Assembly (NCBI GenBank): GCA_964500725.1
Contig: CAZCNP010000001.1
Location: 138,950-202,949 of the forward strand
DNA length: 64,000 nucleotides
Reading direction: 5' to 3'
Origin: an uncultured Gammaproteobacteria bacterium
GTDB lineage: Bacteria > Patescibacteriota > Microgenomatia > Daviesbacterales > UBA10151
In this document: positions 3,203 to 62,444 of the stretch, piece by piece
How positions within the stretch are numbered: the stretch's first letter is position 1
How the letters are laid out: each line of letters starts with the position of its first letter
Translations under genes and position numbers: made by a program
Notes under the pieces: model-generated
Databases searched by the model: none
What the model saw: the letters and a program-made list of their open reading frames with translations, nothing else
Told to the model about the DNA's origin: nothing

Positions 3203-3217
3203 AGTTTGTCAAATTTT

Positions 3218-3290
3218 CCCCACAACAAAGTACTCTAATTTGCAGAGATGTGCTATAATTCAGTTATTATATTTTATTCTATAGGATAAC
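3218..3290 (+). promoter_or_regulatory. sigma70-type promoter with extended -10 (TGcTATAAT at 3251-3259); copy 1 of a duplicated promoter/5' segment
   Basis: gTGcTATAAT with a weak -35 (TACTCT); the same 150+ bp recurs at 9636-9840. Confidence 0.45.
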
Positions 3291-3292
3291 CT

Positions 3293-3613
3293 ATGAGTAC
3301 TAAAGAAGGTTTGGACGGATCCGTTTCAAACCAAGAAAAAAACAGCGCTCCTTCCACAGAGACACCGTTATATATTAACGGTACCTCAATATTGGCTTTC
3401 AGTCAAGGGGTTAATTTTAGAGAATTCCCTACCTCTGTAAAAGAGATTTTCTCAGGTGTCAGACAACCTCAGGATAAATGGTATCGCACAGCAGTTCTTG
3501 CTGCTTCCGCAGCAGTTGGCTTTGGATTGTCTATCGCATTTGTTTCCTTACTTGATCCTCAAACACCATCACTAATAAAAACAGTCATAGATTCAGTAGG
3601 GAGAATACCATAA
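3293..3613 (+). CDS. hypothetical membrane-associated protein (first gene of surface-protein operon)
   Basis: 106 aa with a C-terminal hydrophobic helix; its stop overlaps the next start (ATAATGG); its 5' 100 nt are duplicated at 9742. Confidence 0.55.
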   Translation: MSTKEGLDGSVSNQEKNSAPSTETPLYINGTSILAFSQGVNFREFPTSVKEIFSGVRQPQDKWYRTAVLAASAAVGFGLSIAFVSLLDPQTPSLIKTVIDSVGRIP

Positions 3614-4431
3614 TGGCTAACCCGGAAAGAAGACATGCAGGACTGCGTGTGGCTTTGGTTACTGCTTTAGGATTCTCAGGCGCAACCGGTGCAGTGCTTG
3701 CAGGGAAGGCATTTCTTGAAGGAGTTTCCAGACAACCGGTAGTCGCCAGTGAAAATCAAGAAGGAGGCATTATGCCTTCTTTAAAAACCTTTAACGAGCT
3801 AGTCGCTCAAACTCCTTTCCCGGCTATACCAACAATTACAGAAACTCCAACAGCTACTTCTACCAGCACTGCTACAAGTACAACTGAACCTACTGCTTCA
3901 AATACACCAACAGGAACAGCAACTAAACCAGCAAGTACTGCAACAGGCACTGCAACAGCAACAGAAGTTCCAACCCAAGAACCTACCAAAATACCAGCCA
4001 CAGCTATTATTAAACCCACAGAGGTTCCTACTGCTGAAACAGCTCCTACTCCTGATACTACTCCAGCACCTACAGCTCTAGCTCCTAAAATTGAGCCACC
4101 TGCTCCCCCAACCCAGCCTCCTCCTCCCCCAGAAAATGTCGATCCAAAGAAACGATTGCTGGATGCTACAAAGGCAGACTTAGTAGGAAGACTGGGAGTA
4201 AGCCCAAATAATATTGCCCCTATACTATATGACAATGCACTTATCTGGCAGAAAGATGGTACTATACTTTGTCCATATCCAATAGGCCCCAAGGACGGTA
4301 CTGGCTCCACCCGTTCTGATGGCAAAATGATCGCATTTTATTTAAAAGATAGTCCTAAAATAATACACATTTATTTCAGCGATCCTAACACAGGTAATTT
4401 TTCCTATTGTGGTACAGGCACCCGATCTTAA
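3613..4431 (+). CDS. hypothetical Thr/Pro-rich surface protein
   Basis: 272 aa; N-terminal hydrophobic segment, long (T/A/P)-rich low-complexity linker, Cys-containing C-terminal domain. Confidence 0.55.
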   Translation: MANPERRHAGLRVALVTALGFSGATGAVLAGKAFLEGVSRQPVVASENQEGGIMPSLKTFNELVAQTPFPAIPTITETPTATSTSTATSTTEPTASNTPTGTATKPASTATGTATATEVPTQEPTKIPATAIIKPTEVPTAETAPTPDTTPAPTALAPKIEPPAPPTQPPPPPENVDPKKRLLDATKADLVGRLGVSPNNIAPILYDNALIWQKDGTILCPYPIGPKDGTGSTRSDGKMIAFYLKDSPKIIHIYFSDPNTGNFSYCGTGTRS

Positions 4432-4494: not shown

Positions 4495-4992
4495 ATGGAT
4501 AATCTAAATACTAAAGACAACTTATTATCTATTTCTCTTAAGAAGAAAAGAATATACATTATTTTTATAGTTTCCATTATTGTTTTATTATCAGCAATAA
4601 TTTTATTCATAAAATATCCCGCTTTTAAATCACTCTCTTCCAACCAAAGTCTGTATGGTGCAACTTTTGTCCCTCAAAAATACGACCAAAGCCCCACTTA
4701 TCCAACAGCAGTTTATCAAAAGGGTAAAGATTTTTTAGCTTACGGAACAATAAAAAACCTCGACAAAAAACTTTCTTGGGTTGAGCTGCAAGGCGCCAAT
4801 AATACTAGCTTTAAAACTCAATTAACTTGCAAAGGAAAGATTGTAGAGATGAGTATCCAGAACAATCAAAGGAGAATCGTCTCGTTAAAGGAGGGTTTAT
4901 CTGAAATGAACCTCGGAGACAAGTTCTTTGGAGTCTGTAGCAATCAAACTTGTCAGGAATTAAAAACTTGCACCCTTATCAAACGGTTTTAA
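4495..4992 (+). CDS. hypothetical membrane-anchored protein
   Basis: 165 aa with an N-terminal TM anchor and a small Cys-containing ectodomain; same operon. Confidence 0.5.
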   Translation: MDNLNTKDNLLSISLKKKRIYIIFIVSIIVLLSAIILFIKYPAFKSLSSNQSLYGATFVPQKYDQSPTYPTAVYQKGKDFLAYGTIKNLDKKLSWVELQGANNTSFKTQLTCKGKIVEMSIQNNQRRIVSLKEGLSEMNLGDKFFGVCSNQTCQELKTCTLIKRF

Positions 4993-4998: not shown

Positions 4999-7900
4999 AT
5001 GAAAAAAGGACCTAAATTATTAGTTCAACTATTATTCCTTTGTTTATTTTTGATAATTTTCTCAATTCTTACAAACCAAGAAGCACAAGCCTTAATAGAT
5101 GGTTGCGGAGGCTCAGAAGTCTGTTCTAGAAATGGCACCACAGGCTATTGCCCTGCTGCTCCTAATGATAGTTACACTGGTCAAGCATGCGCTGAAGAAG
5201 GATGCTGTTATGATAATGCTGGGATATGTGGCTCAGATTGGAGATATTGCGATGGTACTTTAGGGACCAATAGTACTGATACAAGAAGATATTGGGGTTG
5301 CCCTGGATGTGAAGGTGGTGGAAGCCCAACAGGTTCTATTTCTGCCAGCCCAAATCCTTGTTATTTAACAGCTAATAATAGTATTTGCACTTCTAATATA
5401 TCCTGGAATACCAGCAATACTTCTACTGTCAGGGTTTGTGTAAAAAATAGCAGCGTCAATACTTATGACCCGTTTAGCAGTGAACTTATTGGATCTTCAG
5501 AACCTGCTACCTGGATTGCTCCTGATAAAACTTATACTTTTACTATATTTAACTCCGGCAGCTGCAGTGGTGATTACCTTGCTACAACTACAGTTAGAGC
5601 TAAAGTACCTGCCCCAACTACCTCTACATCTTCTTGTATCAATGCAGATGGTTCTAATATAACTATTAGCTGGATCGATACACTTCCTGCCATAAGTTAT
5701 ATAGATATTAGTGCTTCTAGTACCTTCTCCCCCTATTATCATAAAAGTGTCTCAGGCACCCCTACCGATACTTATGGATTTACCGGTTATAGCAGTACGA
5801 TAAATGGACAACTTTTAACATTAGAGCCCAGTACCACGTATCATGTCCGGTCCTGGAATAATCAAGTCCAAAGTGATTCTTCTTCATTTACCACCCCCGT
5901 TGCCTGCAGTTGCACTGTTTCCTGGCATGATGTCCCTTCAGTTGTCTCTGCCAATACTGATTTTTCTCTTCATTTCACTGAAGGAACCAGTAATGTGGGA
6001 TGGAATTTTGGCTCGCTCTACTTAGATGATGTGTATGTAAACAATACCGTTGGAGGAAAATGCCTTACTGGTGCTGATATTAATGGAAACTGTGTTCTTG
6101 GTGATATTTATTTTGGAGCTTGGGAAGGCCTTAATTCAGGAGCACCTGGTACTCATACTTTAACTTGGAAAGTACCTGATACACGTACAGGAGTAACTTT
6201 TGGAAGCACTCCTGCCACTACCTGTACTCCATCTGCAGATTTTACTACCTGTGCAGTAGCATTTGACTGTTCTACCTTAGCCTGTCATACTAATACTACT
6301 TCTGCAATCTATGCAAATGGTATTTGTGGCTTAAAATCCTGTGCTCCAAATGCTCCAGCAGCCACAAGCTGTGGAGATGCCACCTGTCAAACTACTACCC
6401 CAACTTATTATACTGGCTCTAGTTGTAGTACTACTGCATGTTCTAACTACAATGCTTTTCCAGAAGCTACAATACCTGCTTGTCGGACAAGTGGTGGTTC
6501 TGGATATGATGGGAGTTCTTGTACCGAAACTACATACACAGCCAACTGTACTGATACTGATGCCTGTACTACTGATTCCTGTAGTGCTGCTGGGGTATGT
6601 ACTCATACTAATAATCCTGTTAATGGCGCCTGGTCTGATTGGAGCGGTGGCACTTGCGTATCCTGTGGAACTGGAACCTTAACTGGAGAAGTTAGAACGT
6701 GCACTAATCTTACTCCTTCTTGTGGTGGGACTGAATGTACTAGAAATGATGGAACCCTAACTACTCCTGCTGATAGAACAGAACAAAGATCAGGAGTAAC
6801 AGCCTGCACTGGCTCAACTACCTGTGACAGTACTCATTACTGTTCCTCTGGTACTTGTACAGCTTGTCCTGCTCTACCAGCTGCTCCGACTGGACTCAGT
6901 CCAATCACAGGATCTGTTCTTAGAACTGCTGGAAATACTACTTTTTCCTGGGATGCAGTTACAGGAGCTGCTGGGTATTATTTTAGGATTGCTCCTGACA
7001 TAAGAGTCCCGGGAGGTACTTGTGGTACAGATGTCTATTGCTCTGACATGATTACTTCTAATTCTATCTCCCGCACTCTTACAACTGGAACTGATTATAC
7101 CTGGTGGGTTCATAATGCTATAGCTGCAAATGGTTCATGCGGTACTGCTGGACCATATACTCCTGCCACTCTTCATGTCTGTTCTGCCATGACTACCCCA
7201 ACTCTCTTATCTCCTGCAGGAAACATAGATGCTGGTACCCGGAATATTACCTGGAACCGGGTTGCAAATGCTACAGCATATTCTGTGAGAGTAGCTGACC
7301 GAACTGATGGAAGCTCTGGTGACATAGAGAACTGTGATACCTGTACTGTAGATTTAACCCCTGCTGCTCTAAGTTGTGCTAATACAGCTGATACAACTTG
7401 CTCATATTCGTATAACTTTCTCTCAGGACACAACTACGATATCTGGGTTCACTCAAAGGTAGATAACAATTCTGAATGTTGGAGCAACGTGAACTACCTT
7501 ATTGCTAAAGTCCGTCCAGCTGTTTCTGCAGGTCCGAGCTGTATTCCCGCTGGATATAACGGAGCAGGATATACTATTACCTGGGCAGGCAGCGCTCCTG
7601 CCGGTTCCTACGTTGATATCAGCACCAGAGAAGACTTTGCTACTTACTATCATAAGGATGTCTCCAGTACCACCAGCACTAACGGAACCGATTTTAACCT
7701 TTCCACAGGAGGAGGAACCTCATTGACCTACAGTGGCAACACTCCATATTATGTCAGGCTTTACTGGAACTACTCCACACCTTACCACAGCGGCACCGCT
7801 TCCTTTACTACTCCTAACTATTGTACCCCTACTGGTTCCTGCAGTGTTTCTCCCACTACAATTACTACATATGCAACAGATACTACCACCTACACTGCCA

Positions 7901-8160
7901 CCCCATCAGGAGGAAATGGAACATATACATACTCCTGGACTTTTAATGGTAATACCGACCCATGTACTGCAAGTTCTTGTACTAAAAACTTTTCAACTGC
8001 TGGGACAGTAAGCTCCAGCTTGACTATCTCATCAGCTGGCTTAACATCATCAACTATCTCTTGTCCTGATGTAACTGTTCAACAAGCAGTAGGACCCTGG
8101 ATACAGGCTGTTGGTGATGTTCATTCAAATACTGGCATCAATGCTCCTGGAGGCCCATAA
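4999..8160 (+). CDS. large secreted Cys/Thr/Ser-rich multi-domain surface protein, putative adhesin (hevein-like ChtBD1 + TSP1 repeat + Cys-rich repeats + FN3-like units)
   Basis: 1053 aa with a signal peptide. It has QACAEEGCCYDNAGICGSDWRYCDG (hevein-like CC..G.CG...YC), WSDWSGGTCVSCGTGTLTGEVRTC (thrombospondin type-1 WSxWS...CSxTCG), multiple C-x-x-D-x-C-T-T-D-S-C repeats, and repeated ~90-aa units with W..V.GA.GY.FR / TDYTWWV (FN3-like). Confidence 0.75.
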   Translation: MKKGPKLLVQLLFLCLFLIIFSILTNQEAQALIDGCGGSEVCSRNGTTGYCPAAPNDSYTGQACAEEGCCYDNAGICGSDWRYCDGTLGTNSTDTRRYWGCPGCEGGGSPTGSISASPNPCYLTANNSICTSNISWNTSNTSTVRVCVKNSSVNTYDPFSSELIGSSEPATWIAPDKTYTFTIFNSGSCSGDYLATTTVRAKVPAPTTSTSSCINADGSNITISWIDTLPAISYIDISASSTFSPYYHKSVSGTPTDTYGFTGYSSTINGQLLTLEPSTTYHVRSWNNQVQSDSSSFTTPVACSCTVSWHDVPSVVSANTDFSLHFTEGTSNVGWNFGSLYLDDVYVNNTVGGKCLTGADINGNCVLGDIYFGAWEGLNSGAPGTHTLTWKVPDTRTGVTFGSTPATTCTPSADFTTCAVAFDCSTLACHTNTTSAIYANGICGLKSCAPNAPAATSCGDATCQTTTPTYYTGSSCSTTACSNYNAFPEATIPACRTSGGSGYDGSSCTETTYTANCTDTDACTTDSCSAAGVCTHTNNPVNGAWSDWSGGTCVSCGTGTLTGEVRTCTNLTPSCGGTECTRNDGTLTTPADRTEQRSGVTACTGSTTCDSTHYCSSGTCTACPALPAAPTGLSPITGSVLRTAGNTTFSWDAVTGAAGYYFRIAPDIRVPGGTCGTDVYCSDMITSNSISRTLTTGTDYTWWVHNAIAANGSCGTAGPYTPATLHVCSAMTTPTLLSPAGNIDAGTRNITWNRVANATAYSVRVADRTDGSSGDIENCDTCTVDLTPAALSCANTADTTCSYSYNFLSGHNYDIWVHSKVDNNSECWSNVNYLIAKVRPAVSAGPSCIPAGYNGAGYTITWAGSAPAGSYVDISTREDFATYYHKDVSSTTSTNGTDFNLSTGGGTSLTYSGNTPYYVRLYWNYSTPYHSGTASFTTPNYCTPTGSCSVSPTTITTYATDTTTYTATPSGGNGTYTYSWTFNGNTDPCTASSCTKNFSTAGTVSSSLTISSAGLTSSTISCPDVTVQQAVGPWIQAVGDVHSNTGINAPGGP

Positions 8161-8172
8161 CGAAAATTCTGC

Positions 8173-8604
8173 CTACTTAAGTTTTGACTTTACAAAATAA
8201 GCTATTTTCTCTACTAACTTCTTTGCTTCTTCCGCACTCGATTTATTAATTGATTCAATAAACTCCGGGTATCTTGTTTCTATATAGTAAGGATTAAGCT
8301 CACTTACTAGATCAGACAATTTGTTGAATTCTTTATCAAATTCAGCACAGATTCTTACTAATTCTTTTAAATCATGTGTTTTCTTAAAATCCAGTTCTTT
8401 GGCTACAATAAGAGCTTTTAAGTATTTTTCCGCAGCTTGATGGAAATGAAAACATATTGGAGAATAAAATTCTATCCCTTCTTCCAAAGAAATTTTGGCA
8501 TATTTGAAATCCTCATCAGCTTTTTTGATCCATCCTTCTGCCAATTTTGGATCAACCATATAATACTCTACCTTCTGAAAGTATTGACTTGATAAATGGA
8601 TCAC
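8173..8604 (-). CDS. HEPN domain protein (toxin partner of the upstream nucleotidyltransferase)
   Basis: 143 aa, alpha-helical, with ETRYP and R-x(4-6)-H-like HEPN signature; overlaps the NTase gene by about 50 nt. Confidence 0.65.
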   Translation of the reverse strand: MIHLSSQYFQKVEYYMVDPKLAEGWIKKADEDFKYAKISLEEGIEFYSPICFHFHQAAEKYLKALIVAKELDFKKTHDLKELVRICAEFDKEFNKLSDLVSELNPYYIETRYPEFIESINKSSAEEAKKLVEKIAYFVKSKLK

Positions 8605-8872
8605 CTATTCTAACCCTTTCTGAGACTTCTTTAGGAGTGTAAACAATAAAATCTGCAGCTATATTTTTTTCTACTAATTTATAAATCTCAACTACCCTAT
8701 CATGAAAGTTCCTACGATCATCCTTAATTATTAAAAAATCCAGATCAGAATCATCAGTCATATTTCCAGTAACAGATGAGCCAAACAGAAAAATCTTCTG
8801 AGGTTTGTACTTCTTTATCAGCTGGTCTGTAATAGAATCAATTTGGGACTGTATCTGTGATTTAGTCATCAA
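8552..8872 (-). CDS. minimal nucleotidyltransferase (MNT) domain protein, antitoxin-type
   Basis: LFGSSVTG...DSDLDFLII, the pol-beta-type NTase GS...D.D motif. Confidence 0.7.
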   Translation of the reverse strand: MMTKSQIQSQIDSITDQLIKKYKPQKIFLFGSSVTGNMTDDSDLDFLIIKDDRRNFHDRVVEIYKLVEKNIAADFIVYTPKEVSERVRIGDPFIKSILSEGRVLYG

Positions 8873-8966
8873 ACGTATTATATCATTTTCATCAATACCA
8901 GCCCAACTTGTAAAACCAGTAGTTTTGATTTATGTTTAGCAAAGAGGAAGTCTGAAGCTCAAGAAA

Positions 8967-9302
8967 TTACCCCTTAAGCATCTGCTGAATCTGTTTTTTA
9001 AATGTAGGCAGGTCTTTTTTGATTATCTCCCATACTAACCCCAAATCTACTCCAAAATAACCATGAATCAGTTTATCTCTTAGACCTGAAATCTTCTGCC
9101 AAGGAATAGCTGGATATTTCTTTTTAAAATCACCTGGTAAATTCTTAACTGCTTCTCCTATTATCTCAAGTCTTCTGATAGCTGCATCCTGAATGGGAAC
9201 TTCTCTGATAAATTTATCCTTAGATATGTCATTCGTTTCTTTTTCAATCCATTCAATACTTTCTGAAATATGAATTAAGAAAATAGTGGAATCTTTCCGC
9301 AT
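8967..9302 (-). CDS. hepT: HepT-like (DUF86) HEPN toxin
   Basis: RDKLIHGYF gives the R-x4-H-x-Y HEPN/DUF86 motif; paired with the upstream MntA-like gene. Confidence 0.7.
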   Translation of the reverse strand: MRKDSTIFLIHISESIEWIEKETNDISKDKFIREVPIQDAAIRRLEIIGEAVKNLPGDFKKKYPAIPWQKISGLRDKLIHGYFGVDLGLVWEIIKKDLPTFKKQIQQMLKG

Positions 9303-9315
9303 GTATCTTGCTAAT

Positions 9316-9642
9316 TTAAAGAATCCGAATCTGATCTTTTTGAATATAGTCTTTAAGTAATGGATTAATAGAGTTATATGTTAATAAATCCACCTTTTTA
9401 CCTACTGCTTTTTTCAAATCCATCTCCAGACCTATTAGATCAAGCAGACTACTGCCTCTGGGAAGCTCTACTAAAATATCAATATCACTACCCCTTGCTT
9501 GATCACCCCTGGCAAAAGAACCGAAAAGACTGCTTCTTTTTACCCTTGCTTGTTTAAGAATAGGCAGGATTTGATCTTTAAGCTTTTCTATACGCATCTG
9601 TAACTTAGTCATTAAATTTATTATACCATTTCCCCACAACAA
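9316..9642 (-). CDS. mntA: MntA-like nucleotidyltransferase antitoxin
   Basis: LFGSFARGDQARGSDIDILVE NTase motif; the true start is probably an internal Met (MTKLQ or MRIEKL). Confidence 0.7.
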   Translation of the reverse strand: MLWGNGIINLMTKLQMRIEKLKDQILPILKQARVKRSSLFGSFARGDQARGSDIDILVELPRGSSLLDLIGLEMDLKKAVGKKVDLLTYNSINPLLKDYIQKDQIRIL

Positions 9643-9840
9643 AGTACTCTAATTTGCAGAGATGTGCTATAATTCAGTTATTATATTTTATTCTATAAGC
9701 CTAGCTTGAAATTCTCGCTATACTCAAATTATAGGATAGCCTATGAGTACTAAAGAAGGTCTGTCACCCGGGTTACCAGACCAGAACCAAGAAAAAAACA
9801 GCGCTCCTTCCACAGAGACACCGTTACCAGATAACGTTAT
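9636..9840 (+). repeat. second copy of the promoter plus first ~100 nt of gene 3293, carrying a 36-bp insertion
   Basis: Near-identical to 3218-3375 (including TGcTATAAT at 9665-9673) but with an extra AGCCTAGCTTGAAATTCTCGCTATACTCAAAT inserted after TATA; the reading frame decays into a short junk ORF. Confidence 0.7.
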
Positions 9841-9846
9841 ATTAAA

Positions 9847-10059
9847 TTGCTTATTAAGTCAAGTAGGAAAAAAAAAGCAGCTATTTTTTTTGCAGCTGCT
9901 GGAACAGTAAACTCCAGTTTAACTGTCTCATCAGCTGGCTTAACATCATCAACTATCTCTTGTCCTGATGTAACTGTTCAACAAGCAGTAGGACCCTGGA
10001 TACAGGCTGTTGGTGATGTTCATTCAAACTCAGGGATAAATGCTGCTGGAGGACCATAA
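9847..10059 (+). pseudogene. 3'-terminal fragment of a paralogue of the 1053-aa surface protein
   Basis: About 150 nt are nearly identical to 8010-8160, encoding ...SSAGLTSSTISCPDVTVQQAVGPWIQAVGDVHSN.GINA.GGP*; only the last ~55 codons of a paralogue survive. Confidence 0.6.
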
Positions 10060-10100
10060 TAACAAATGAAAATGGAAAATGTAAAATTGATAATTTAATA

Positions 10101-10466
10101 TTATCTCTTCTTAATATTCTTTTGGGAACAGGACAGACAATATTGGGCTGAAGGTAAAGCTAAAAGTCTTTCTGTCTCAATCTGCTTACCACAATTATCA
10201 CATTTGCCATATGTGCCAATCTTGATCTTGGAAAGAGCAATTTTTATTATACTGTTCATTCTAATCAGTTGGGCTTTTATAACCTCAGATTTAGTATGTG
10301 TATCAGCAATGTATGAATCAGTCCCAGGCTCTGAAGATTCTGCCAAAGCAGGAGACTTGGCCGGATCATCTTCTTCTATATCTCTGATGCTTTGATCAAC
10401 CTCTTTTTTCTGCCTTTGCAGGTATTTATGAAGAAAATCCAGGGTTTGTTTAGGAAAATTTAACAT
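10101..10466 (-). CDS. DksA/TraR-family C4 zinc-finger protein
   Basis: C-terminal CDNCGKQIETERLLALPSAQYCLSC gives the C-x2-C...C-x2-C DksA/TraR finger. Confidence 0.6.
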   Translation of the reverse strand: MLNFPKQTLDFLHKYLQRQKKEVDQSIRDIEEDDPAKSPALAESSEPGTDSYIADTHTKSEVIKAQLIRMNSIIKIALSKIKIGTYGKCDNCGKQIETERLLALPSAQYCLSCSQKNIKKR

Positions 10467-11304
10467 TTGATTTTTTGAGTAATTTTTTTAGGTTTCTAAC
10501 TTTCCAGCTGATATTTGTTTTCTGATTATACCAGCTTTTACTTAAGTTTTGCATACTCAAAGATCTTAACACATTTTTTGCATGCGCCAGCGGATTTTGT
10601 CTGGTAACTTTATAAAAAATAGTCAGCCCTAACAGGACAAAAACAGCAGAAAAAAATGCCCCTGAATGATCTACCCTGAAAGGCTCAAGTATCAGCTTGA
10701 TAATACCTATATAAATAAATCCCAAACTGACAATCTTGCCTCTTTGATGAAAATGAATTGCCTGAGACCAGAGTAAACGCAAGGCTGCCAATAAAAATAA
10801 TGCCTCCACAATCTGGACAGGCCATCTCTTGCCTATGCTTCCCAGCATAGCAATTGAAAAAAATGCTTCTGAAGGAGCCCCAACGCCACACCCACCTAAA
10901 AAGCAACCAATGTTAGACAAAACTAATGCTCCTATTAAACCTACCGCGGCAATATCGGCAACTTGCCAAAAGTCCAAACGTTTATTTCTGGTAAGGAAAA
11001 ATAATGTCAGCCATCCCCCTAAAACTCCTCCCCAAAAAGAAAAACCCGGAAACTTATTAATTAAAATCAAATTCAAAGGTGAAGCCATAAATAATTGCAG
11101 ATGTGAAATTACAAAATATAATCTTGCTCCTGCAAGCCCTCCCAAAAAGGTTAGCAGAGTGAAATCTAAAATCTTTTCCTCATCCAGATCCCAAGCGCGG
11201 GCAAGTCTCCAAACCAAAAATATTCCCAGTAAAAACCCCAGCGCCAGAAAAACACCATATGATGAAACAGATAATTTGCCCACAGAGAAAAGCACTGGAA
11301 ACAT
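10450..11304 (-). CDS. lgt: prolipoprotein diacylglyceryl transferase
   Basis: Polytopic; GGLAGARLYFV (Lgt G..ARL signature) and FWGGVLGGW. Confidence 0.75.
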   Translation of the reverse strand: MFPVLFSVGKLSVSSYGVFLALGFLLGIFLVWRLARAWDLDEEKILDFTLLTFLGGLAGARLYFVISHLQLFMASPLNLILINKFPGFSFWGGVLGGWLTLFFLTRNKRLDFWQVADIAAVGLIGALVLSNIGCFLGGCGVGAPSEAFFSIAMLGSIGKRWPVQIVEALFLLAALRLLWSQAIHFHQRGKIVSLGFIYIGIIKLILEPFRVDHSGAFFSAVFVLLGLTIFYKVTRQNPLAHAKNVLRSLSMQNLSKSWYNQKTNISWKVRNLKKLLKKSNVKFS

Positions 11305-11370
11305 ATCGCTCTAGCCTACCACAAAGTCCACATTTGAATCAAATTGACAAAGGGGGTATACTGAATAGTT

Positions 11371-11814
11371 GTGACCGCTACCGCGCATGCATTAATAGGA
11401 GGAGCAATTGCTGCCTCTATTTCCAACCCTGCTGTTGGCATCCCGCTGGTTGCCATCTCCCATCCCCTGGTTGATATGATTCCCCACTGGGATTTTGGAC
11501 TGGGCTGGAAGAAAAAAAGTAAAACTTTACTTTTTTTACAATCTTTTGGAGATTTAGTCTTTGGAGTAGTTTTAACTTTTCTGCTTTTTGGCAATACAAC
11601 AGATAACCTTTATCTTCTGCTAGCTATCTTTATTTCTGAATCTTGGGATCTTTTACAAATGCCTTATTTACTGCTTAACTGGAAATTCTTTCCTTTTTCT
11701 GCCTTTTATAATTTTGGGCATTATACTAATGGTAAAGCCAAAATGCCTTGGGGAATCTTAACGCAGGCCGCCACAGTTGGCGGTTTAGTTTTAGTTTTGA
11801 GAATTTTCCACTAA
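11371..11814 (+). CDS. hypothetical small membrane protein
   Basis: 147-aa hydrophobic ORF; preferred over the antisense ORF 11316-11594, which is lysine-rich low complexity. Confidence 0.4.
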   Translation: MTATAHALIGGAIAASISNPAVGIPLVAISHPLVDMIPHWDFGLGWKKKSKTLLFLQSFGDLVFGVVLTFLLFGNTTDNLYLLLAIFISESWDLLQMPYLLLNWKFFPFSAFYNFGHYTNGKAKMPWGILTQAATVGGLVLVLRIFH

Positions 11815-12684
11815 ATCTTTTAAATACTTATCAAAATCTTCCCCAATTTCAGGGTGCTTTCTGGCTAAATCTACTACAGTTTTCATATATTCCAATTTAT
11901 TCCCAGTATCATAATATTTACCATTTTGCACCTCTACTGCATACAAAGGCACTCCTTCTTCTTTTAGCAAGTTTATAGCATCTACTAGCCAAATTTCTCC
12001 ACCTTTTCCTGGATCAAGCTTTTTTAAAGCGGCAAAAATTTCTGGAGGCAAAATATAGGCTCCATGGGTGGCTATATTTGAAGGGGCTTGATCTGGATCT
12101 GGTTTTTCTACAATTTTTTTAATTTTATAAACATTACCTTCTACCGGTTCTAAATCAGCTATGCCATATCTTTTTAAATCTTCCTTTTTTTCAATCTTTA
12201 CCCCAGAAATTACCATACCACCATATTTTTCATATACATCTATCATCTGTTTAAGCCTGGGGGGCTCTGCATAAATGAACTCATCACCCCAAATAACAGC
12301 AAATGGCTCATTACCTATAACTGGTTCTCCAGCCAAAACAGGGGTACCATTACCATAAGGGCCTTTTTGACGGATATAAATAAAGTTAGCCATATCAGCA
12401 ATACGATTTACTTGCTCAAGCATTTTTTCTTTTTGACCATTTACTAAATTCTGAACCAGATCCTGATTAGGAACATCAAAATGATCCTCAATTGCCCTTT
12501 TAGTAGAACCTGTCACAATAACAATATCTTCTATGCCTGAGGCTACTATCTCTTCTACTACATACTGAATAACAGGCTTATCAACAATAGGCAGCATTTC
12601 TTTGGGCATGGCCTTGGTTTGAGGAAGGAATCTGGTCCCAAATCCAGCTGCTGGTATCAAAGCTTTAGTGATTTTCTTTGCCAT
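11791..12684 (-). CDS. galU: UTP--glucose-1-phosphate uridylyltransferase
   Basis: KALIPAAGFGTRFLPQTKAMPKEMLPIVDKPVIQYVVEE N-terminus, length 297. Confidence 0.85.
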   Translation of the reverse strand: MAKKITKALIPAAGFGTRFLPQTKAMPKEMLPIVDKPVIQYVVEEIVASGIEDIVIVTGSTKRAIEDHFDVPNQDLVQNLVNGQKEKMLEQVNRIADMANFIYIRQKGPYGNGTPVLAGEPVIGNEPFAVIWGDEFIYAEPPRLKQMIDVYEKYGGMVISGVKIEKKEDLKRYGIADLEPVEGNVYKIKKIVEKPDPDQAPSNIATHGAYILPPEIFAALKKLDPGKGGEIWLVDAINLLKEEGVPLYAVEVQNGKYYDTGNKLEYMKTVVDLARKHPEIGEDFDKYLKDLVENSQN

Positions 12685-43740: not shown

Positions 43741-45489
43741 TTATTCTTGCTTGCCTGCATTTTTACAAGCCTGATAATTTGCCCAAGCTTGGTCACGACA
43801 AACCTGAGTTTTTCCATGACAGTCGCTTGCTTTCATACATGCATCATATTTATCAGCTGGAGAAACCTCGTCTAAATACGAACCTTTAGCATTGTCTGAA
43901 CATACTTTCTGACAGCTATTAAAAACTTCAAAGCATCTATAACTTTCCCACTCGTAATTTTTATAGGAGCAATCCGTACCAGTTTGTTGCTGAGGCTTGT
44001 CTTTTGGCTCAGTATCAACTCCAGTTTCTTTATCAAGTTTTAGCTCAGGTTTTGCAGGAGATACAATCTCACGCCCAATATCTTTCTCAATCTGACTGAT
44101 TGCACTGTTAAGCATCTCATCAATAGATTTGAAATTACCTATTTCAGAAACACGCCCACGTTCAATGACCCCGGTTTCTATGTTGATGAGTTCAGCAAAG
44201 ACATGACCAGAATTTTGATTATCCCAATAAAACAAGTCTCCTGCGGATATATCTAACATATATCTGACGCTCTTCCCCTTCTTCCTTTGATCTAAAGTAA
44301 GCATTTGGTAATCCTTATCCAAAGGAATAATCATACCGATACTCTGGCCTTCGCTAAAAGTAGAGTCAGATGTTTCTTGTTTATCCCCCTCAGCATCTGA
44401 TCTTTTCCTTAGTGAAACATCATTAGAAGTAAGTTGTTGTTGACCTCCCCTAGCTGAAACAAACTGCTGGGCAGCTTTGAATATATCAGCCTGCTCTAAG
44501 GTTCTACCACCGGAGGTTCTTCCGGTAAGCCACTGGTCATAGCGGTATTGACGAACTTTTCTTAAGGCTTCATCTCGAGTTTTACTGCTGTCAACAATTT
44601 CAGTTGCTGCCTTATATCCAATTCCGCTCCCTTCAGCAAAATTTTTTATGGCCGAATCTCTTACTCTGACCCATTCTTCCCGCTCTTGTGTTTCTTTCCT
44701 GATTCGCTGTGAATCCATTAAATTACTTATCTTTTGTCTGCTGATTGCTTCATCAAATTTTGATGTATATTTCTCTTGTCCAAATGGCACAGTAGCTAAA
44801 GATCGATACGCGATTTCTGCCGCTTCACCTTTTGTTAAATTGGACACATTGGTATTAAGGATGTTTTTATCTTTGGCCAAGGTTTGTGCTTCCTCATCTG
44901 TTAATATTTTTCCCGGCTCCCAATCCATCAGGCGGGATAAAGACCCTGCAGATTCTGCACCTTTAACCTGAGCATCCGGATTGAAATTAGTTTTTACTTG
45001 CTGGGCATTAACCTGCTTTATAAATCTGAAAGGCAGGTTTGATTGCTTTTCCGAACCTTCTTTAAACCAGCCTTGCTCCTTTGCATAACAAACTTCTGTT
45101 TCATGCTGGTAACCACTGATATCTGCAAAACAGTCTTTGTAAGTCCCTTTATCAGGAGTCACCCCTGAAAGCTTAGTCAGCGTCACTGCCCATTCACCCC
45201 GTGTCATAGTTTGTTCTGGATCGAAGTTCCCATCCTTATCCCCTTCCAAAATCTTTTCTCTGGCAAGATAGCTAATTGCAGTGTAGTTTTTATGATCTGC
45301 AGACACATCTTTAAATGGTTTGGGTTTGAATGAGGCAATATTACCTTCTGTAGTGGTTGTGTCTGCTTTTAAACCCCCCCTGGAGGATAATAACCAAATT
45401 GCTGCAGCAACAATCAAAACTACAACAACAATAAGCGGGATAATATGTACAATGCCCGCTTCGCAGCGAGGCGAGCCTTTTTGGTTCAT
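43741..45489 (-). CDS. membrane-anchored surface protein with SLH-like domain and Cys-rich C-terminus
   Basis: TM; FKDVSADHKNYTAISYLAREKILEGDKDGNFDPEQTMTRGEWAVTL follows the SLH pattern F.DV...H...I..L...GI..G..DG.F.P...TR.E.A..L. Confidence 0.6.
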   Translation of the reverse strand: MNQKGSPRCEAGIVHIIPLIVVVVLIVAAAIWLLSSRGGLKADTTTTEGNIASFKPKPFKDVSADHKNYTAISYLAREKILEGDKDGNFDPEQTMTRGEWAVTLTKLSGVTPDKGTYKDCFADISGYQHETEVCYAKEQGWFKEGSEKQSNLPFRFIKQVNAQQVKTNFNPDAQVKGAESAGSLSRLMDWEPGKILTDEEAQTLAKDKNILNTNVSNLTKGEAAEIAYRSLATVPFGQEKYTSKFDEAISRQKISNLMDSQRIRKETQEREEWVRVRDSAIKNFAEGSGIGYKAATEIVDSSKTRDEALRKVRQYRYDQWLTGRTSGGRTLEQADIFKAAQQFVSARGGQQQLTSNDVSLRKRSDAEGDKQETSDSTFSEGQSIGMIIPLDKDYQMLTLDQRKKGKSVRYMLDISAGDLFYWDNQNSGHVFAELINIETGVIERGRVSEIGNFKSIDEMLNSAISQIEKDIGREIVSPAKPELKLDKETGVDTEPKDKPQQQTGTDCSYKNYEWESYRCFEVFNSCQKVCSDNAKGSYLDEVSPADKYDACMKASDCHGKTQVCRDQAWANYQACKNAGKQE

Positions 45490-46736: not shown

Positions 46737-47005
46737 TCTGATATCAGAGTAGCACCAATTAAATTATCAAGTCAAACACTAGATATTTCTGGTGGTTTGG
46801 AATGAATAATCTTTCCTAGAGAGTTTCTTTCTACAATTATTCTGGCTTTTCTTGGATTAGGTAATTTGAAGCTGAACTGGAATGGGAAATCTATCGAATT
46901 ATAAGCGGAGCTTGAAATTCTCGCTACGCTCAAATTATTAGTTGTAATAGCGGGATACAAATACCTACGGAAAGACTCATGAGGCTAATTATAACAGAGG
47001 ATTCA

Positions 47006-48838
47006 TTAACGTGGATCGTAAGTCTCGCCAAAAGTTGCCACTACCCTATTGTTTTTATCATAAGCTATAATTTCTATCTTCTTCCAGTCAAGTTCTATGC
47101 CTGATGGACCGTTTGTACTACAACCTGTTGGGCCCCGGCAGACTTGTGAAGGGTCTCCCTCGATTTTACCACTCCAGAAATTATTTCCATCTTTTTTAAT
47201 CTCTATTCTTATAGGTAGCCAAACCCTGACATCCTTTCCAGGATCTGTTGCAACAATAATATGGGGCTTTTGGGCTGAGGAGAAAGCGATTGATGGCTGA
47301 CCAGTTGCCACATCCAAAAATTCGAAGTATCCATCTGAATATTCATTTGCTTCTGGAGCACCAGTAGAACGCTTCGTAGGTAACGAAACTGGCGATGGAC
47401 TTGCTAAAGTAGATGGGGTAATCATTTGGCCAATGTTTGCTTCCAAATCAGCCAGCCCTTCCTTAAAAATGGCCTCCAGCTTATTCAAATTGCGCCACCC
47501 CAATGAACTGCCTGCTTTCTCACCCACCCCACTCTCCCAATTCCTTAGAATCAAATTGAGACGCCCGACACTTCGACCTTCTAGATAAAATGTACTTATA
47601 CCAATCTTCATCAAATATTTAACCTTAGCAAGATTATTCCTTGGAAGAACGCCATAGTTTTTATCTAACAGCAGCAGGATCTCTACTGATTCCCGGGTAT
47701 TCATGGCCGGATTGTCATTAATTTTTACTATATCTTCATAATGTGGTGGGGTACTTTTGGATATCAAAAGGTCATCTTTTGAGATAACTATTCCTTTTTC
47801 GGCAAACACTTTTTGTAATGCTTCAAGGACATTAAAGGAAGGGGGTTCTCCCCAACGCACTTTGTCCTCTGCCAACAATTTCTCGTAATTCTTTTCGCGC
47901 GCTTTCCTGATGTATGCTGAAGATTCCTCTTCACTACCATCCTTAGTGGTTGCCATAATTTCTGCCGCTGCCTCATCGCCAATTATTTTTGCCATATTCT
48001 TCTGGCGAGCTTTTCTGATTCGCTCATTCTCCGCCTGGCGCTGGCTCCCAAGCTTGTCATCAAGATCTATTAAGTTTTCAACCCTATACCTCTCCACCTG
48101 ATGTTCCAGTTCCGGCGAAAATTTTTCCTTTCCCAAAGGGATTGTAGCTACAGAACGATAAATTATTCCAGCAGCTTCCCCCTTCGTCAGATTACCCGCA
48201 ATATCATTGCCTTGCGATATCTCGCGTTCTTTGGCAACACCCACAGCAGTCTCATTTGAACTTTTTGCCCCCTCTGTCCCCTCCCACTTCATAAGCCGGG
48301 ATAGAGAACCAACTGCCTCTGTAATTTTCACCGGAACGTCGGGATTAAAATTCTCTTTAGACTCTTGAGCATAAACTGCCACGATCAGTTGTTGGAAGTT
48401 AAATGTTTGCGGGTCCACAGCAGTTAGTCCTTCAAGCCAACCCTGCTCTTTGGCTAAGCAAATAGAGGCCGCATCCTTCCCCAGCCCCACATCGGAAAAA
48501 CAATTCTTATATGTTCCCTCATCAGGGGTAATACCCGTTAGCCTCACCAAGATTACAGTCCATCCCGCCCTAGTCAACACATCTTTAGAGTTAAATTTCC
48601 CGTCCTTATCCCCTTCCAATACTCCCTCCCTGGCTAAATAAGAAATTGCGGTGTAATTTTTGTCATTAACTGAAACATCCTCAAATGGCTTTTGCTTAAG
48701 AGAAGCTATTTCTTCAAAGGATGGTGGAGTATTTCGTCCTTTGATAAAAAACCAAATTATTGCACCGAAAACTGCAAGCACAACTAAAATTGCAACAATA
48801 TGAACAGCACCCTTTTGGGCCAAAAAATGGCGAGTCAT
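47006..48838 (-). CDS. paralogous SLH-like membrane-anchored surface protein
   Basis: N-terminal ~130 aa alignable with 43741-45489 (FEDVSVNDKNYTAISYLAREGVLEGDKDGKFNS...TRAGW). Confidence 0.6.
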   Translation of the reverse strand: MTRHFLAQKGAVHIVAILVVLAVFGAIIWFFIKGRNTPPSFEEIASLKQKPFEDVSVNDKNYTAISYLAREGVLEGDKDGKFNSKDVLTRAGWTVILVRLTGITPDEGTYKNCFSDVGLGKDAASICLAKEQGWLEGLTAVDPQTFNFQQLIVAVYAQESKENFNPDVPVKITEAVGSLSRLMKWEGTEGAKSSNETAVGVAKEREISQGNDIAGNLTKGEAAGIIYRSVATIPLGKEKFSPELEHQVERYRVENLIDLDDKLGSQRQAENERIRKARQKNMAKIIGDEAAAEIMATTKDGSEEESSAYIRKAREKNYEKLLAEDKVRWGEPPSFNVLEALQKVFAEKGIVISKDDLLISKSTPPHYEDIVKINDNPAMNTRESVEILLLLDKNYGVLPRNNLAKVKYLMKIGISTFYLEGRSVGRLNLILRNWESGVGEKAGSSLGWRNLNKLEAIFKEGLADLEANIGQMITPSTLASPSPVSLPTKRSTGAPEANEYSDGYFEFLDVATGQPSIAFSSAQKPHIIVATDPGKDVRVWLPIRIEIKKDGNNFWSGKIEGDPSQVCRGPTGCSTNGPSGIELDWKKIEIIAYDKNNRVVATFGETYDPR

Positions 48839-53376: not shown

Positions 53377-53417
53377 GGGTATACATTGTTTGTTAATTGA
53401 AGCTAAAATTATTATAA

Positions 53418-53693
53418 TTGCAAAACAAATATATTAGGAGTATCATTCAATCAATGAAGAAGAAACTATTTTCTTTTATTATCGGTCTTGCTCTCGTCTT
53501 TACCTTTGTTTTGTCTTCTGCGTCTCCTGTCGATGCTTACTCATATAGGGTCAGAGGCTATACAAGATCAAATGGTACTTATGTAAACAGTTATTATAGA
53601 ACTAGCCCAAACTATACAAGATTTGATAATTATTCCACCCGAGGTAACTATAATCCTTATACTGGTAGATTTGGTACAAGAAGCCCTTGGTAA
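53418..53693 (+). CDS. small secreted Tyr/Arg/Asn-rich protein (element cargo)
   Basis: Signal peptide (true start probably MKKKLFSF) then an RGY/YxR-rich low-complexity sequence. Confidence 0.4.
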   Translation: MQNKYIRSIIQSMKKKLFSFIIGLALVFTFVLSSASPVDAYSYRVRGYTRSNGTYVNSYYRTSPNYTRFDNYSTRGNYNPYTGRFGTRSPW

Positions 53694-53740
53694 CATCTTT
53701 TTCCTCCTAGATTATCCCTAGAGTAATACTGATAATATGA

Positions 53741-54301
53741 GTGGATATGACTAAACGTGATGTAGGTTTAATCTTTGCCGGGGCATTATTAGCTTCAGGC
53801 ATTATTTTTATCATTGTGGGCTTTATGTATAAAGATAGCCTGGGTGATTATATTCAAGCAAAATATATCCCACCTGCTTTTAATATTCCTAAGGAGGTTA
53901 ATAGAGATTTTGCTATAGATATAATTGACCGAGTAAATATTGTGCGCAAGAACGCTAATTTACAGCCTCTTAAGGAAAGCTCAGCCCTATCTTATGCAGC
54001 ATTTCTAAGAGCAAAAGAGATTTTAGCTAATCAGGAATTTAACCATTATGCTTCTGGTAGCGGAGATATAAAAGCCCAGAAAGCGGTTGAAGTAGTTGGA
54101 TACAGGTATAGCGAAGTGGGTGAGAACCTAGCCAGAGGATATGATGATCCTAATCTGGTAATTGAAGGGTGGTTGAATTCACCTGAACATAAACAGAATA
54201 TGCTTAAAATTAATTATAAAGAAGTGGGCGTAACGGTATTAGAAGGATTATTTCAAGGTAATAATGAAAACATTATTGTACTGTTACTAGGAAATCCGTA
54301 A
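53741..54301 (+). CDS. CAP/SCP/PR-1-like domain protein, membrane anchored
   Basis: N-terminal TM; EFNHYASGSG...GENLA...GWLNSPEHKQNM resembles the CAP-domain HY / GEN / W..S..H motifs. Confidence 0.5.
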   Translation: MDMTKRDVGLIFAGALLASGIIFIIVGFMYKDSLGDYIQAKYIPPAFNIPKEVNRDFAIDIIDRVNIVRKNANLQPLKESSALSYAAFLRAKEILANQEFNHYASGSGDIKAQKAVEVVGYRYSEVGENLARGYDDPNLVIEGWLNSPEHKQNMLKINYKEVGVTVLEGLFQGNNENIIVLLLGNP

Positions 54302-54309
54302 GAATATAC

Positions 54310-54516
54310 TTAATCAAAGAGTTCTTTTACAGGTATTTTCAGTGCTTTTGCAATCGCATTTATTCTTTTTATTGACGGATTTCTCTTTCCGGCCTCGATC
54401 TCGTTTAAATAGCTGTAATCAATCTTTGATTCATAAGCTAGATCTTCCTGGGTCATCTTTTTGGCTCTTCTCACAGCCCTAATCCTTTTACCTAGTGCTT
54501 CATTAATATTGGCCAT
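54310..54516 (-). CDS. XRE-family HTH transcriptional regulator (repressor-like)
   Basis: 68 aa; KKMTQEDLAYESKIDYSYLNEIEAGKRNPSIKRINAIAKAL cro/cI-type HTH; divergent from a TTGACT-17-TATACT promoter at 54552-54580. Confidence 0.7.
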   Translation of the reverse strand: MANINEALGKRIRAVRRAKKMTQEDLAYESKIDYSYLNEIEAGKRNPSIKRINAIAKALKIPVKELFD

Positions 54517-54592
54517 AAACGAATTATGGCTTTGATATTAAGAAAGTTGTATTGACTATAGTCCAAGATTAGGCATATACTCACCTTAAGAA

Positions 54593-55375: not shown

Positions 55376-55387
55376 ATTTATAAGACT

Positions 55388-55726
55388 ATGAAATGGATTA
55401 TTGGAATAACCGCTTTTTTTCTTCTAATTTCCTTAATTTTTAATACTTCGTCCAATTCCAGTAGTACAAAAAATGATACTTCAGTAACAACTACCGTTGA
55501 TTATCCTGATGAAAATATTGAGTCAGATCAAACAGAAGAAGATGTTAATATAGATTCTGGTCCAACAGAATTTAATGGGTATCCTTGTACAGGTGATTGT
55601 AGCGGACATGAAGCAGGATATGAATGGGCTGAAGAACACGGTATAACACAAGACGATGTTGACAATTATTCAGGTAATTCCAATTCTTTTATGGAAGGAA
55701 TGCAATCATATGTTGATGAGAACTAA
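55388..55726 (+). CDS. hypothetical secreted protein
   Basis: Signal peptide; acidic; CTGDCSGHEAGYEWAEEHGI. Confidence 0.4.
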   Translation: MKWIIGITAFFLLISLIFNTSSNSSSTKNDTSVTTTVDYPDENIESDQTEEDVNIDSGPTEFNGYPCTGDCSGHEAGYEWAEEHGITQDDVDNYSGNSNSFMEGMQSYVDEN

Positions 55727-55794
55727 TAGAAAAGATGCTGCCTATGAAAACCGTTAGAATACTATATATGGCATATATAGTATAAACTTGGATT

Positions 55795-56130: not shown

Positions 56131-56148
56131 ACGGTTAATATTGGTAAT

Positions 56149-56490: not shown

Positions 56491-56499
56491 ATAAAAAAT

Positions 56500-57984: not shown

Positions 57985-57986
57985 AA

Positions 57987-60566: not shown

Positions 60567-60591
60567 ATTATGCTTTTAACTTAAGGTGGTT

Positions 60592-62441: not shown

Positions 62442-62444
62442 TAG

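What the first reader, a model, noticed from the sequence alone, without database searches (positions are those of the whole stretch)
8161..10059. Recombination scar: duplicated promoter/5' end and duplicated 3' end of the adhesin operon flank a block of two MNT/HEPN toxin-antitoxin pairs
The segment 9636-9840 repeats the promoter and first ~100 nt of gene 3293. The segment 9892-10059 repeats the last ~150 nt of the 1053-aa gene (...SSAGLTSSTISCPDVTVQQAVGPWIQAVGDVHSN...), with a few substitutions. Everything between the two genes is missing from the second copy. Between the intact operon and this remnant lie four minus-strand genes forming two NTase/HEPN pairs (8173-8872 and 8967-9642). This is consistent with an ancestral tandem duplication of the adhesin operon followed by deletion, with toxin-antitoxin modules sitting at the junction. 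Alternatively, the remnant could serve as a silent donor cassette for gene conversion of the conserved C-terminus, giving antigenic or phase variation.
Basis: seen in the sequence. Interest (0 to 1): 0.55.

Follow-up and report, generated by a model that had tools for sequence, protein, structure and literature searches.

The report
Displaced gene ends flanking toxin-antitoxin cassettes
Two toxin-antitoxin gene pairs were recombined in just after a large surface-protein gene of an uncultured Daviesbacteria bacterium, leaving a dead stub of that operon's start and end beside the neighbouring dksA gene; a related genome shows the same kind of scar several times at the same spot, so it looks like an insertion hotspot rather than an antigen-switching device.

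Summary
Window 9629-9826(9863) repeats the promoter and first ~28-38 codons of gene 3293. Window 9888-10059 repeats the last 57 codons of the 1053-aa gene (92% identity, with a 101-nt identical core). Two intact MNT/HEPN pairs lie between the intact operon and this stub.

Comparison with related genomes changes the reading:
- The stub sits where the operon's 3' end ancestrally abuts dksA (L003, L022).
- The repeats differ mostly at synonymous sites, and the differences are clustered. They look like diverged functional alleles, not a decaying local copy.
- Another Daviesbacteria genome (L014/L024) carries four copies of the orthologous gene's 3' end at the same locus. They are separated by AbiE, HigB-like/HTH and AAA-ATPase cassettes.
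- Smaller toxin-antitoxin (TA) cassettes flanked by duplicated dksA or pepN 3' ends occur in other relatives.

Best reading: this is a scar of homology-driven acquisition of TA cassettes, with displacement of the resident gene ends. The duplicated 5' end is unique to this genome and needs one extra step.

A silent-cassette role in antigenic variation is not supported, and an assembly artefact is unlikely. Interest is moderate. The repeated 3' end encodes a conserved, undescribed C-terminal tag, PWIQxxGDVHSNxxINxPGGP.

The parts
3215..3407 (+). H1, copy A of the 5' repeat. It holds the operon promoter region (extended -10 TGCTATAAT at 3251-3259), the ribosome-binding site, and codons 1-38 of gene 1.
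3293..3613 (+). Gene 1: 106 aa, C-terminal membrane helix, no family hit.
3613..4431 (+). Gene 2: 272 aa, N-terminal membrane helix, Pro/Thr-rich linker.
4495..4992 (+). Gene 3: 165 aa, N-terminal membrane helix.
4999..8160 (+). Gene 4: 1053-aa Cys-rich secreted multi-domain protein that ends in the tag PWIQAVGDVHSNTGINAPGGP.
7990..8160 (+). H2, copy A of the 3' repeat (last 57 codons of gene 4). The identical core is 8029-8129.
8173..8604 (-). HEPN-domain toxin gene of pair 1. NCBI places the start at 8559 (128 aa).
8552..8872 (-). MNT nucleotidyltransferase antitoxin gene of pair 1. It carries the GSx10DxD motif (read by eye in the translation).
8967..9302 (-). HepT (DUF86) toxin gene of pair 2. 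It carries the motif RDKLIH (read by eye in the translation).
9316..9612 (-). MntA antitoxin gene of pair 2. The start is at 9597 (NCBI) or 9612.
9620..9628 (-). Extended -10 (TGGTATAAT) for pair 2, just outside the repeat. The TA block therefore carries its own promoter.
   Evidence: read directly from the sequence
9629..9863 (+). H1', copy B of the 5' repeat. Clear homology runs to 9826. The truncated ORF 9743-9910 (55 aa) starts here.
9698..9733 (+). 36-nt insertion in the 5' UTR of copy B. The overlapping stretch 9694-9732 is 90% identical to 46900-46938.
9864..9887 (+). Deletion junction or filler, with an A9 run (9870-9878) and the start of a T8 run (9885-9892).
9888..10059 (+). H2', copy B of the 3' repeat. 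The identical core is 9928-10028. It is annotated as the 70-aa ORF HY383_03345 (9847-10059).
10060..10100 (.). Ancestral spacer between the surface-protein gene and dksA. It is orthologous to the spacers in L003 and L022.
10101..10466 (-). dksA-like zinc-finger gene, the conserved right-hand neighbour.

Best explanation
The 9629-10059 segment is a non-functional, displaced remnant of a second allele of the surface-protein operon. It sits at the operon's ancestral position next to dksA.

Shown:
- In the closest relatives, the orthologous gene's stop codon abuts dksA across the same spacer that follows copy B.
- The two copies differ like separately evolved coding alleles, apart from perfectly identical blocks of 69, 42 and 101 nt.
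- The 1.47-kb block 8161-8628 carries two complete MNT/HEPN modules with their own promoter. It begins 12 nt after the stop codon of the intact gene.

Inferred:
- DNA carrying the TA block plus homologous operon sequence entered by homologous recombination of the single-crossover (Campbell) type. The incoming DNA was either a small circle (TA block plus fused operon ends, crossing over in the 101-nt core) or a circle or tandem copy of the whole operon plus TA block (crossing over in the promoter block).
- This displaced the resident gene ends downstream.
- In the second route, the redundant interior of one copy was then deleted between codon ~38 of gene 1 and codon ~997 of gene 4.
- Later gene conversion keeps patches of the repeats identical.

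Consequence, also inferred: recombination between either repeat pair would delete the TA block. If the modules act as addiction systems, they would select against loss of the region.

The locus is a recurrent insertion site. The homology used is the conserved 3' end that encodes the C-terminal tag.
For: 1. Ancestral position.
- In L003 (Lgt 80% identical) and L022, the tag-bearing gene ends next to dksA.
- Their spacer aligns with window 10060-10100.
- Copy A diverges right after its stop codon.

2. Allelic divergence.
- H2/H2' has 8 synonymous differences over 45 synonymous sites and 6 non-synonymous over 123 sites.
- All 14 mismatches lie outside a 103-nt identical run (p = 2e-5).
- H1' has an in-frame 6-nt indel.

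3. Recurrence at the same locus in L014/L024.
- The 3' end of the 848-aa orthologue, plus its spacer, occurs four times (7865-7951, 9418-9507, 10228-10278, 11580-11630).
- The copies are separated by AbiEi/AbiEii, Gp49-HigB/HTH and AAA_14/DUF4143 genes, before dksA.
- Copies c1 and c2 differ by a synonymous TTA/CTG change and an in-frame codon indel.

4. Same pattern at other gene ends.
- In L018, a MazE/PIN pair lies between 62-nt repeats of the dksA 3' end. The repeats differ by 6 synonymous and 1 non-synonymous change.
- In L016, L017 and L008, cassettes lie between repeats of the same pepN codons.

5. An unrelated HEPN/MNT pair (35-38% identity) sits 7 nt after another tag-bearing gene in L023.

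6. The junctions are reproduced in other assemblies.
Against: - No circular intermediate, empty-site allele or donor genome was seen.
- The duplicated 5' end (H1') has no counterpart in L014/L024 or any other locus. The simple 3'-end displacement model does not explain it without an extra assumption.
- Comparison with L003 does not show which flank of each repeat is 'resident' and which is 'incoming'. The informative sites are split (read).
- Identical blocks could reflect constraint rather than crossover.
- TA modules are frequent in these genomes, so adjacency to tag genes may be partly chance.
- The syn/non-syn counts are small.
- The addiction or stabilisation role is untested.
Confidence: 0.55

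Rival explanations
1. Purely local history. The operon was duplicated in tandem within this lineage. The TA block then inserted at its preferred spot, right after the stop codon of the first copy. The interior of the second copy was deleted.
For: - It explains both H1' and H2' with one duplication.
- The TA block lies exactly between the end of one unit (8160) and the start of the next (9629).
- TA cassettes sit directly after tag-gene stop codons elsewhere.
Against: - The copies are not evenly diverged: perfect blocks lie next to stretches with 20-45% mismatch, and synonymous changes are in excess.
- No relative has two operons.
- The four-copy 3'-end array in L024, which has no 5' ends, would need repeated duplication and near-total deletion.
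Confidence: 0.25
2. A site-specific cassette platform. The tag-coding 3' end would be an attachment site recognised by a recombinase acting in trans. Small TA or defence cassettes would be inserted and excised there, as in integrons or cis-mobilisable elements, leaving arrays of att-like repeats.
For: - Arrays of repeats separate single cassettes in L024.
- Cassette genes are all antiparallel to the surface gene in the window, L023 and L024.
- The best-conserved part of the repeats is the same stretch, CCTGGATACAGG...CATTC.AATAC.
- A large serine recombinase is present elsewhere in the window, at 60891-62546.
Against: - No recombinase lies within 10 kb of the locus here, and none lies in the L024 array.
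- Repeats at dksA and pepN ends have unrelated sequences.
- No conserved hairpin of the attC type was found. Fold z-scores are only -1 to -2.3, and the stems are not conserved between genomes.
- Nucleotide conservation cannot be separated from conservation of the peptide tag.
Confidence: 0.12
3. The stub is a silent donor cassette. It would convert the 3' end of the expressed gene and so vary the surface protein.
For: - A 101-nt identical core is flanked by variant sequence, the geometry used by pilS- or vls-type systems.
Against: - There is a single stub, and only 6 amino-acid differences.
- The region covered is the conserved tag, not a variable domain.
- No other cassettes exist in the window.
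Confidence: 0.03
4. An assembly artefact or a chimera of two co-existing strains.
For: - The source is a metagenome-assembled genome.
- Logan unitigs break inside the repeat core.
Against: - The unitig ends are exactly k-1 = 30 nt into the core, as expected for a true repeat.
- Both copy-specific right-hand junctions exist at 100% identity in other read sets.
- The H1'-H2' junction ORF is identical on a second NCBI contig that also carries the identical 1053-aa gene.
- The exact repeats (69 and 101 nt) are shorter than usual reads.
Confidence: 0.04

Closest known systems
Orphan (displaced) C-terminal modules of rhs and cdiA polymorphic-toxin loci (Koskiniemi et al. 2014, PMC3967940)
   Same: - Fragments of the 3' part of a large surface or secreted-protein gene lie downstream of the full gene.
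- They keep a stretch of near-identity to it and usually lack their own translation signals.
- They are thought to arise when horizontally acquired modules recombine in and displace the old end.
- Recombination between the main gene and the orphan is possible.
   Different: - Here the displaced piece carries no alternative toxin domain. It is nearly the same as the expressed end.
- The genes between the repeats are ordinary TA or defence modules, not immunity genes.
- A piece of the operon's promoter and 5' end is displaced too.
Tandem accretion of integrative elements or cis-mobilisable elements at the 3' end of a gene (att direct repeats). Named from my own knowledge of ICE/IME biology.
   Same: - Direct repeats duplicate the target gene's 3' end.
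- The gene is restored by the incoming copy.
- Arrays of partial 3' ends separate successive inserts (L024).
   Different: - No integrase was found in or near the inserts.
- Inserts are one to four genes long.
- The repeats look like diverged alleles with long identical cores, which suits general homologous recombination.
Integron cassette arrays, which in chromosomal superintegrons often carry TA cassettes
   Same: - Small, mostly single-function cassettes (many of them TA modules) in one orientation, separated by a repeated sequence, next to a fixed platform.
   Different: - No IntI integrase.
- No attC-type folded sites.
- The repeat is the coding 3' end of a protein gene.
HepT/MntA (HEPN/MNT) toxin-antitoxin systems
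   Same: - Both pairs have an MNT gene upstream of a HEPN or HepT gene, with family motifs and strong Pfam scores.
   Different: - Nothing unusual in the modules themselves. Only their position between direct repeats is notable.

Membership tests
HepT/MntA (HEPN/MNT) toxin-antitoxin | Toxin with a HEPN-fold domain | tested here: met
   PF05168 at 7.5e-32 (8173-8604) and PF01934 at 3e-28 (8967-9302).
HepT/MntA (HEPN/MNT) toxin-antitoxin | Rx4-6H catalytic motif in the toxin | tested here: inconclusive
   HepT2 has RDKLIH (translation). I found no canonical motif by eye in the PF05168-type HEPN of pair 1.
HepT/MntA (HEPN/MNT) toxin-antitoxin | MNT antitoxin with GSx10DxD, encoded directly upstream | tested here: met
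   PF01909 hits. Motifs GSSVTGNMTDDSDLD and GSFARGDQARGSDID are present. Pair 1 overlaps by 8 nt and pair 2 has a 13-nt gap.
HepT/MntA (HEPN/MNT) toxin-antitoxin | Toxicity neutralised by the cognate MNT | not testable with these tools
   Needs expression experiments.
Integron | IntI tyrosine recombinase next to the array | tested here: not met
   No recombinase among the called genes within +-10 kb, and none in the L024 array.
Integron | attC sites that fold as imperfect hairpins | tested here: not met
   DNA folds of the repeat cores give z-scores of -1.0 to -2.3. The stems are not conserved between the window and L024.
Integrative element accretion (att repeats at a gene 3' end) | Direct repeats that duplicate the target gene's 3' end, with the gene kept intact | tested here: met
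   Window; L024; L018.
Integrative element accretion (att repeats at a gene 3' end) | An integrase or excisionase encoded by at least one element of the array | tested here: not met
Polymorphic-toxin orphan modules (rhs/cdiA) | Orphan carries a different C-terminal toxin domain plus a cognate immunity gene | tested here: not met
   The stub differs from the expressed end by 6 aa. The intervening genes are MNT/HEPN.
Silent-cassette antigenic variation (pilE/pilS, vlsE type) | Several silent copies holding variable sequence between conserved blocks | tested here: not met
   There is one stub, and no other copy in the 64 kb. It covers the conserved tag.
Simple tandem duplication remnant | Copies identical at birth, so differences should be evenly spread and neutral | tested here: not met
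   Mismatches are clustered (p = 2e-5) and pN/pS is ~0.28. There is an in-frame indel.

The most novel reading that the evidence does not exclude
In Daviesbacteria, and perhaps other CPR bacteria, the conserved DNA that encodes the C-terminal tag PWIQxxGDVHSNxxINxPGGP would serve as a landing pad for a cassette-capture system. TA and defence cassettes would be gained and lost one by one there, each bringing its own copy of the gene end. This would work like an integron, but with a protein-coding 3' end as the recombination site and without a dedicated linked integrase. The same gene-end displacement would operate at dksA and pepN.
Probability: 0.15. Interest if true: 0.75.

Novelty: new variant of a known kind. 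Interest (0 to 1): 0.4.

Why it matters
- **If the recombination reading holds:** small TA and defence cassettes in these reduced, uncultured bacteria spread by carrying a piece of a conserved host gene end and recombining there. The displaced ends would then form a readable record of successive acquisitions.
- **A practical marker:** arrays of duplicated gene 3' ends could be used to find recent horizontal insertions in CPR genomes.
- **The C-terminal tag:** the work points to a conserved, undescribed tag on many CPR surface proteins.
- **Annotation:** ORF HY383_03345 should be treated as a gene fragment.
- **What it is not:** it does not reveal a new antigen-variation system.

Tried and rejected
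- **Third copy:** I looked for a third copy of either repeat in the window and found none.
- **Known RNA families:** none reach threshold anywhere in the window.
- **Junction hairpin or terminator:** folding of 9840-9930 is not significant (z = -1.06). No terminator-like site lies at the junction.
- **Intact second operon or gene 1-3 homologues in related loci:** none by tblastn or by short blastn of H1/H1' and the TA block.
- **Homologues of the copy-B gene-1 variant:** only the stub itself was found.
- **Viral or mobile-element copies of the tag or of HepT2:** nothing relevant.
- **Displaying the second NCBI contig (385,984 nt):** the tool merges it with the first, and the last look-up failed.
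- **Polarising the flanks of H2/H2' with L003:** the informative sites split evenly.
- **Base composition:** it does not mark the TA block as foreign.
- **Literature:** searches found no description of the tag or of this arrangement.
- **First metagenome scan:** the 7-sequence alignment failed for lack of a conserved stretch. I repeated it with 5 sequences.
Full report
**Source.** The window is part of contig JACQIW010000013.1 of a Candidatus Daviesbacteria metagenome-assembled genome, GCA_016198315.1. GC content is 38%.

**Observation.** Repeat finding, alignment and pattern searches confirm both duplications.
- H1 (3215-3407) and H1' (9629-9863) share a perfect 69-nt block that contains an extended -10 element. 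Copy B then has a 36-nt insertion, followed by the ribosome-binding site and start codon, a diverged patch with an in-frame 6-nt indel, and a perfect 42-nt block. Similarity decays after that.
- H2 (7990-8160) and H2' (9889-10059) are 92% identical, with a perfect 101-nt core.
- Neither repeat has a third copy in the 64 kb.
- Between the copies lie HEPN/MNT and HepT/MNT pairs with strong Pfam scores and the family motifs.
- In the stub, the gene-1 frame (ORF 9743-9910, 55 aa) and the gene-4 frame (ORF 9847-10059, 70 aa, annotated by NCBI) are out of frame. They are joined by about 24 nt that hold an A9 run, followed by a T8 run.

**Is it an assembly artefact?** Probably not.
- Logan unitigs from other runs reproduce window 8100-9063 and 9999-11360 at 100% identity. 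Each ends exactly 30 nt inside the identical core, as a k = 31 graph does at a true repeat.
- A second NCBI contig of 385,984 nt encodes the identical 1053-aa protein and the identical 55-aa ORF that spans the H1'/H2' junction. I could not fetch its DNA.

**Position of the stub.** I fetched 19 related loci through the neighbouring lgt gene.
- The right flank (pepN, efp, a nucleotidyltransferase gene, lgt, dksA) is conserved in most of the loci.
- In the closest relative, L003 (Lgt 80% identical), a gene-4 orthologue (78% over 118 aa, running to the contig end) stops next to dksA. Its spacer aligns with window 10060-10100.
- The same holds for L022, and L013 also has a tag-bearing gene abutting dksA.
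- Copy A loses all similarity right after its stop codon, where the TA block begins.
- So copy B, not copy A, sits at the ancestral junction.
- In L019, dksA directly abuts the AdoMet-decarboxylase gene that flanks the operon on the left here. The whole interval is therefore variable.

**Nature of the divergence.**
- The 14 H2/H2' mismatches all lie outside a 103-nt identical run (p = 2e-5 by permutation).
- They split into 8 synonymous (45 sites) and 6 non-synonymous (123 sites) differences, giving pN/pS of about 0.28.
- Together with the in-frame indel in H1', this says the two copies diverged while both were coding. They behave as alleles from different genomes or old paralogues.
- The perfect blocks then reflect crossover or later gene conversion.

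**Recurrence.**
- L014 and its metagenome twin L024 belong to a different Daviesbacteria species. There, the orthologous 848-aa protein (with a CARDB domain) ends in PWIQVEGDMHSNTRIDLSGGP.
- Its last 50-90 nt plus spacer recur three more times before dksA. The copies are separated by AbiEi/AbiEii, Gp49-HigB/HTH and AAA_14/DUF4143 genes, all antiparallel to the surface gene.
- In L023, a 152-aa tag-bearing protein is followed 7 nt later by an unrelated HEPN/MNT pair.
- In L018, a MazE/PIN pair lies between 62-nt repeats of the dksA 3' end. These differ by six synonymous and one non-synonymous change.
- In L016, L017 and L008, repeats of the same pepN codons flank other small inserts.
- In L015, a 36-nt promoter-region repeat flanks a PaaX/Cas2-like gene.
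- Cassette insertion with duplication of an adjacent conserved sequence is therefore common in this lineage. Where it can be judged, the duplicate is a diverged allele rather than a fresh copy.

**Mechanism.**
- The simplest process that yields 'gene end, cassette, displaced gene end' with allelic repeats is single-crossover homologous integration. The incoming DNA would be circular, or circularised, and would carry a cassette plus a homologous gene end.
- The reverse reaction would release such circles. This explains H2/H2' and the L024 array.
- The duplicated 5' end is special to this genome. Either the incoming circle already carried a fused promoter/5'-3' remnant, or a whole operon plus TA block integrated (or duplicated) and the redundant interior was then deleted. 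I cannot distinguish these routes.
- The TA block has its own promoter, so it does not depend on H1' (read).
- Because any recombination between H1/H1' or H2/H2' would remove the TA genes, active modules would penalise such deletions. This is inference from the known stabilising effect of chromosomal TA loci, which I state from my own knowledge.
- No recombinase lies within 10 kb, and no attC-like fold is conserved. A trans-acting recombinase cannot be excluded; a large serine recombinase lies at 60891-62546.

**The tag.**
- An exhaustive search with the 1053-aa protein found 435 relatives at E <= 0.001.
- At least 16 cluster representatives, 98 to 1137 aa long and with unrelated upstream sequence, end in PWIQxxGDVHSN(T/E)xINxPGGP.
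- The tag is not in Pfam or NCBIfam, and the string does not occur in the literature searched.
- Such a conserved coding end offers ready homology for recombination between genomes.

**Comparison with known systems.**
- The closest analogue is the displaced 'orphan' ends of rhs/cdiA loci (PMC3967940).
- It also resembles accretion of integrative elements at gene 3' ends, and, in outline, integron arrays.
- It fails defining features of each: there is no alternative toxin domain, no integrase and no attC.
- It also fails the features of silent-cassette antigenic variation.

**Verdict.**
- The 'scar' reading is right.
- The 'tandem duplication' reading is only one of two routes.
- The 'donor cassette' reading is unsupported.
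- Interest is moderate, mainly for the recurrent gene-end displacement pattern and the new tag.

Noticed in passing
window 8098-8160 and 9997-10059; proteins P0006, P0015, P0041, P0054, P0064, P0072, P0096, P0105, P0128, P0135, P0140: There is a conserved extreme C-terminal tag, PWIQxxGDVHSN(T/E)xINxPGGP-stop. It ends many otherwise unrelated secreted CPR proteins of 98-1137 aa. It is absent from Pfam and NCBIfam and from the literature searched. It could be a sorting or attachment signal.
   Followed up: partly
window 9694-9732 and 46900-46938: A ~39-nt intergenic element (TATAAGC..AGCTTGAAATTCTCGCTA..CTCAAATTAT) occurs in two copies at 90% identity. It contains an imperfect palindrome, AGC-TT-GAA-A-TTC-TC-GCT. 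One copy is the 36-nt insertion in the stub's 5' UTR, flanked by TATA repeats.
   Followed up: partly
window ~53400-62600 (57987-60191, 60891-62546): A likely integrated mobile element. It has a Prim-Pol/PriCT_1/DUF3987 gene, a large serine recombinase (Resolvase + Recombinase + Zn_ribbon_recom), and FtsK-gamma and HTH genes among many small ORFs of unknown function.
   Followed up: partly
L018:10067-10911; L016:6152-6794; L017:3396-4887; L008:2344-2542: Small TA or other cassettes are flanked by direct repeats that duplicate the 3' end of dksA or pepN. The pepN repeats cover the same codons (SNVEWLKRD) in three genomes.
   Followed up: partly
L015:8242-8822: A perfect 36-nt repeat holding an extended -10 flanks a single PaaX/Cas2-like gene upstream of efp. 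The promoter region is duplicated here, rather than a gene end.
   Followed up: partly
L011:5641-5688, 8451-8558, 11980-12079: A ~100-nt palindromic repeat family, possibly a miniature inverted-repeat element, occurs in three places in one relative.
   Followed up: no
L027:767-5031: A tag-bearing 832-aa protein is followed by three genes whose products have hydrophobic N-termini that I read by eye as prepilin-like. This hints at a link between tag proteins and type IV pili.
   Followed up: no
window 9870-9892: A9 and T8 runs lie at the deletion junction. A +1 slip in the A run would fuse the 55-aa and 70-aa stub ORFs into one frame. The 70-aa ORF begins with a stretch (KSSRKKK + AAIFFAAAG) that I read by eye as signal-peptide-like.
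   Followed up: no
window 45224-45321 vs 48594-48691: There is 73% similarity between the 582-aa SLH-domain gene and the 610-aa gene. These are paralogous surface-protein genes in a second cluster.
   Followed up: no
L003, L006, L008, L009, L012, L013, L015, L016, L019, L020: Public records titled 'uncultured Gammaproteobacteria bacterium' (binchicken and other TPA assemblies) are mostly syntenic with Daviesbacteria loci and 49-80% identical to them in Lgt; L020 is only 32% identical. The organism labels look wrong.
   Followed up: no
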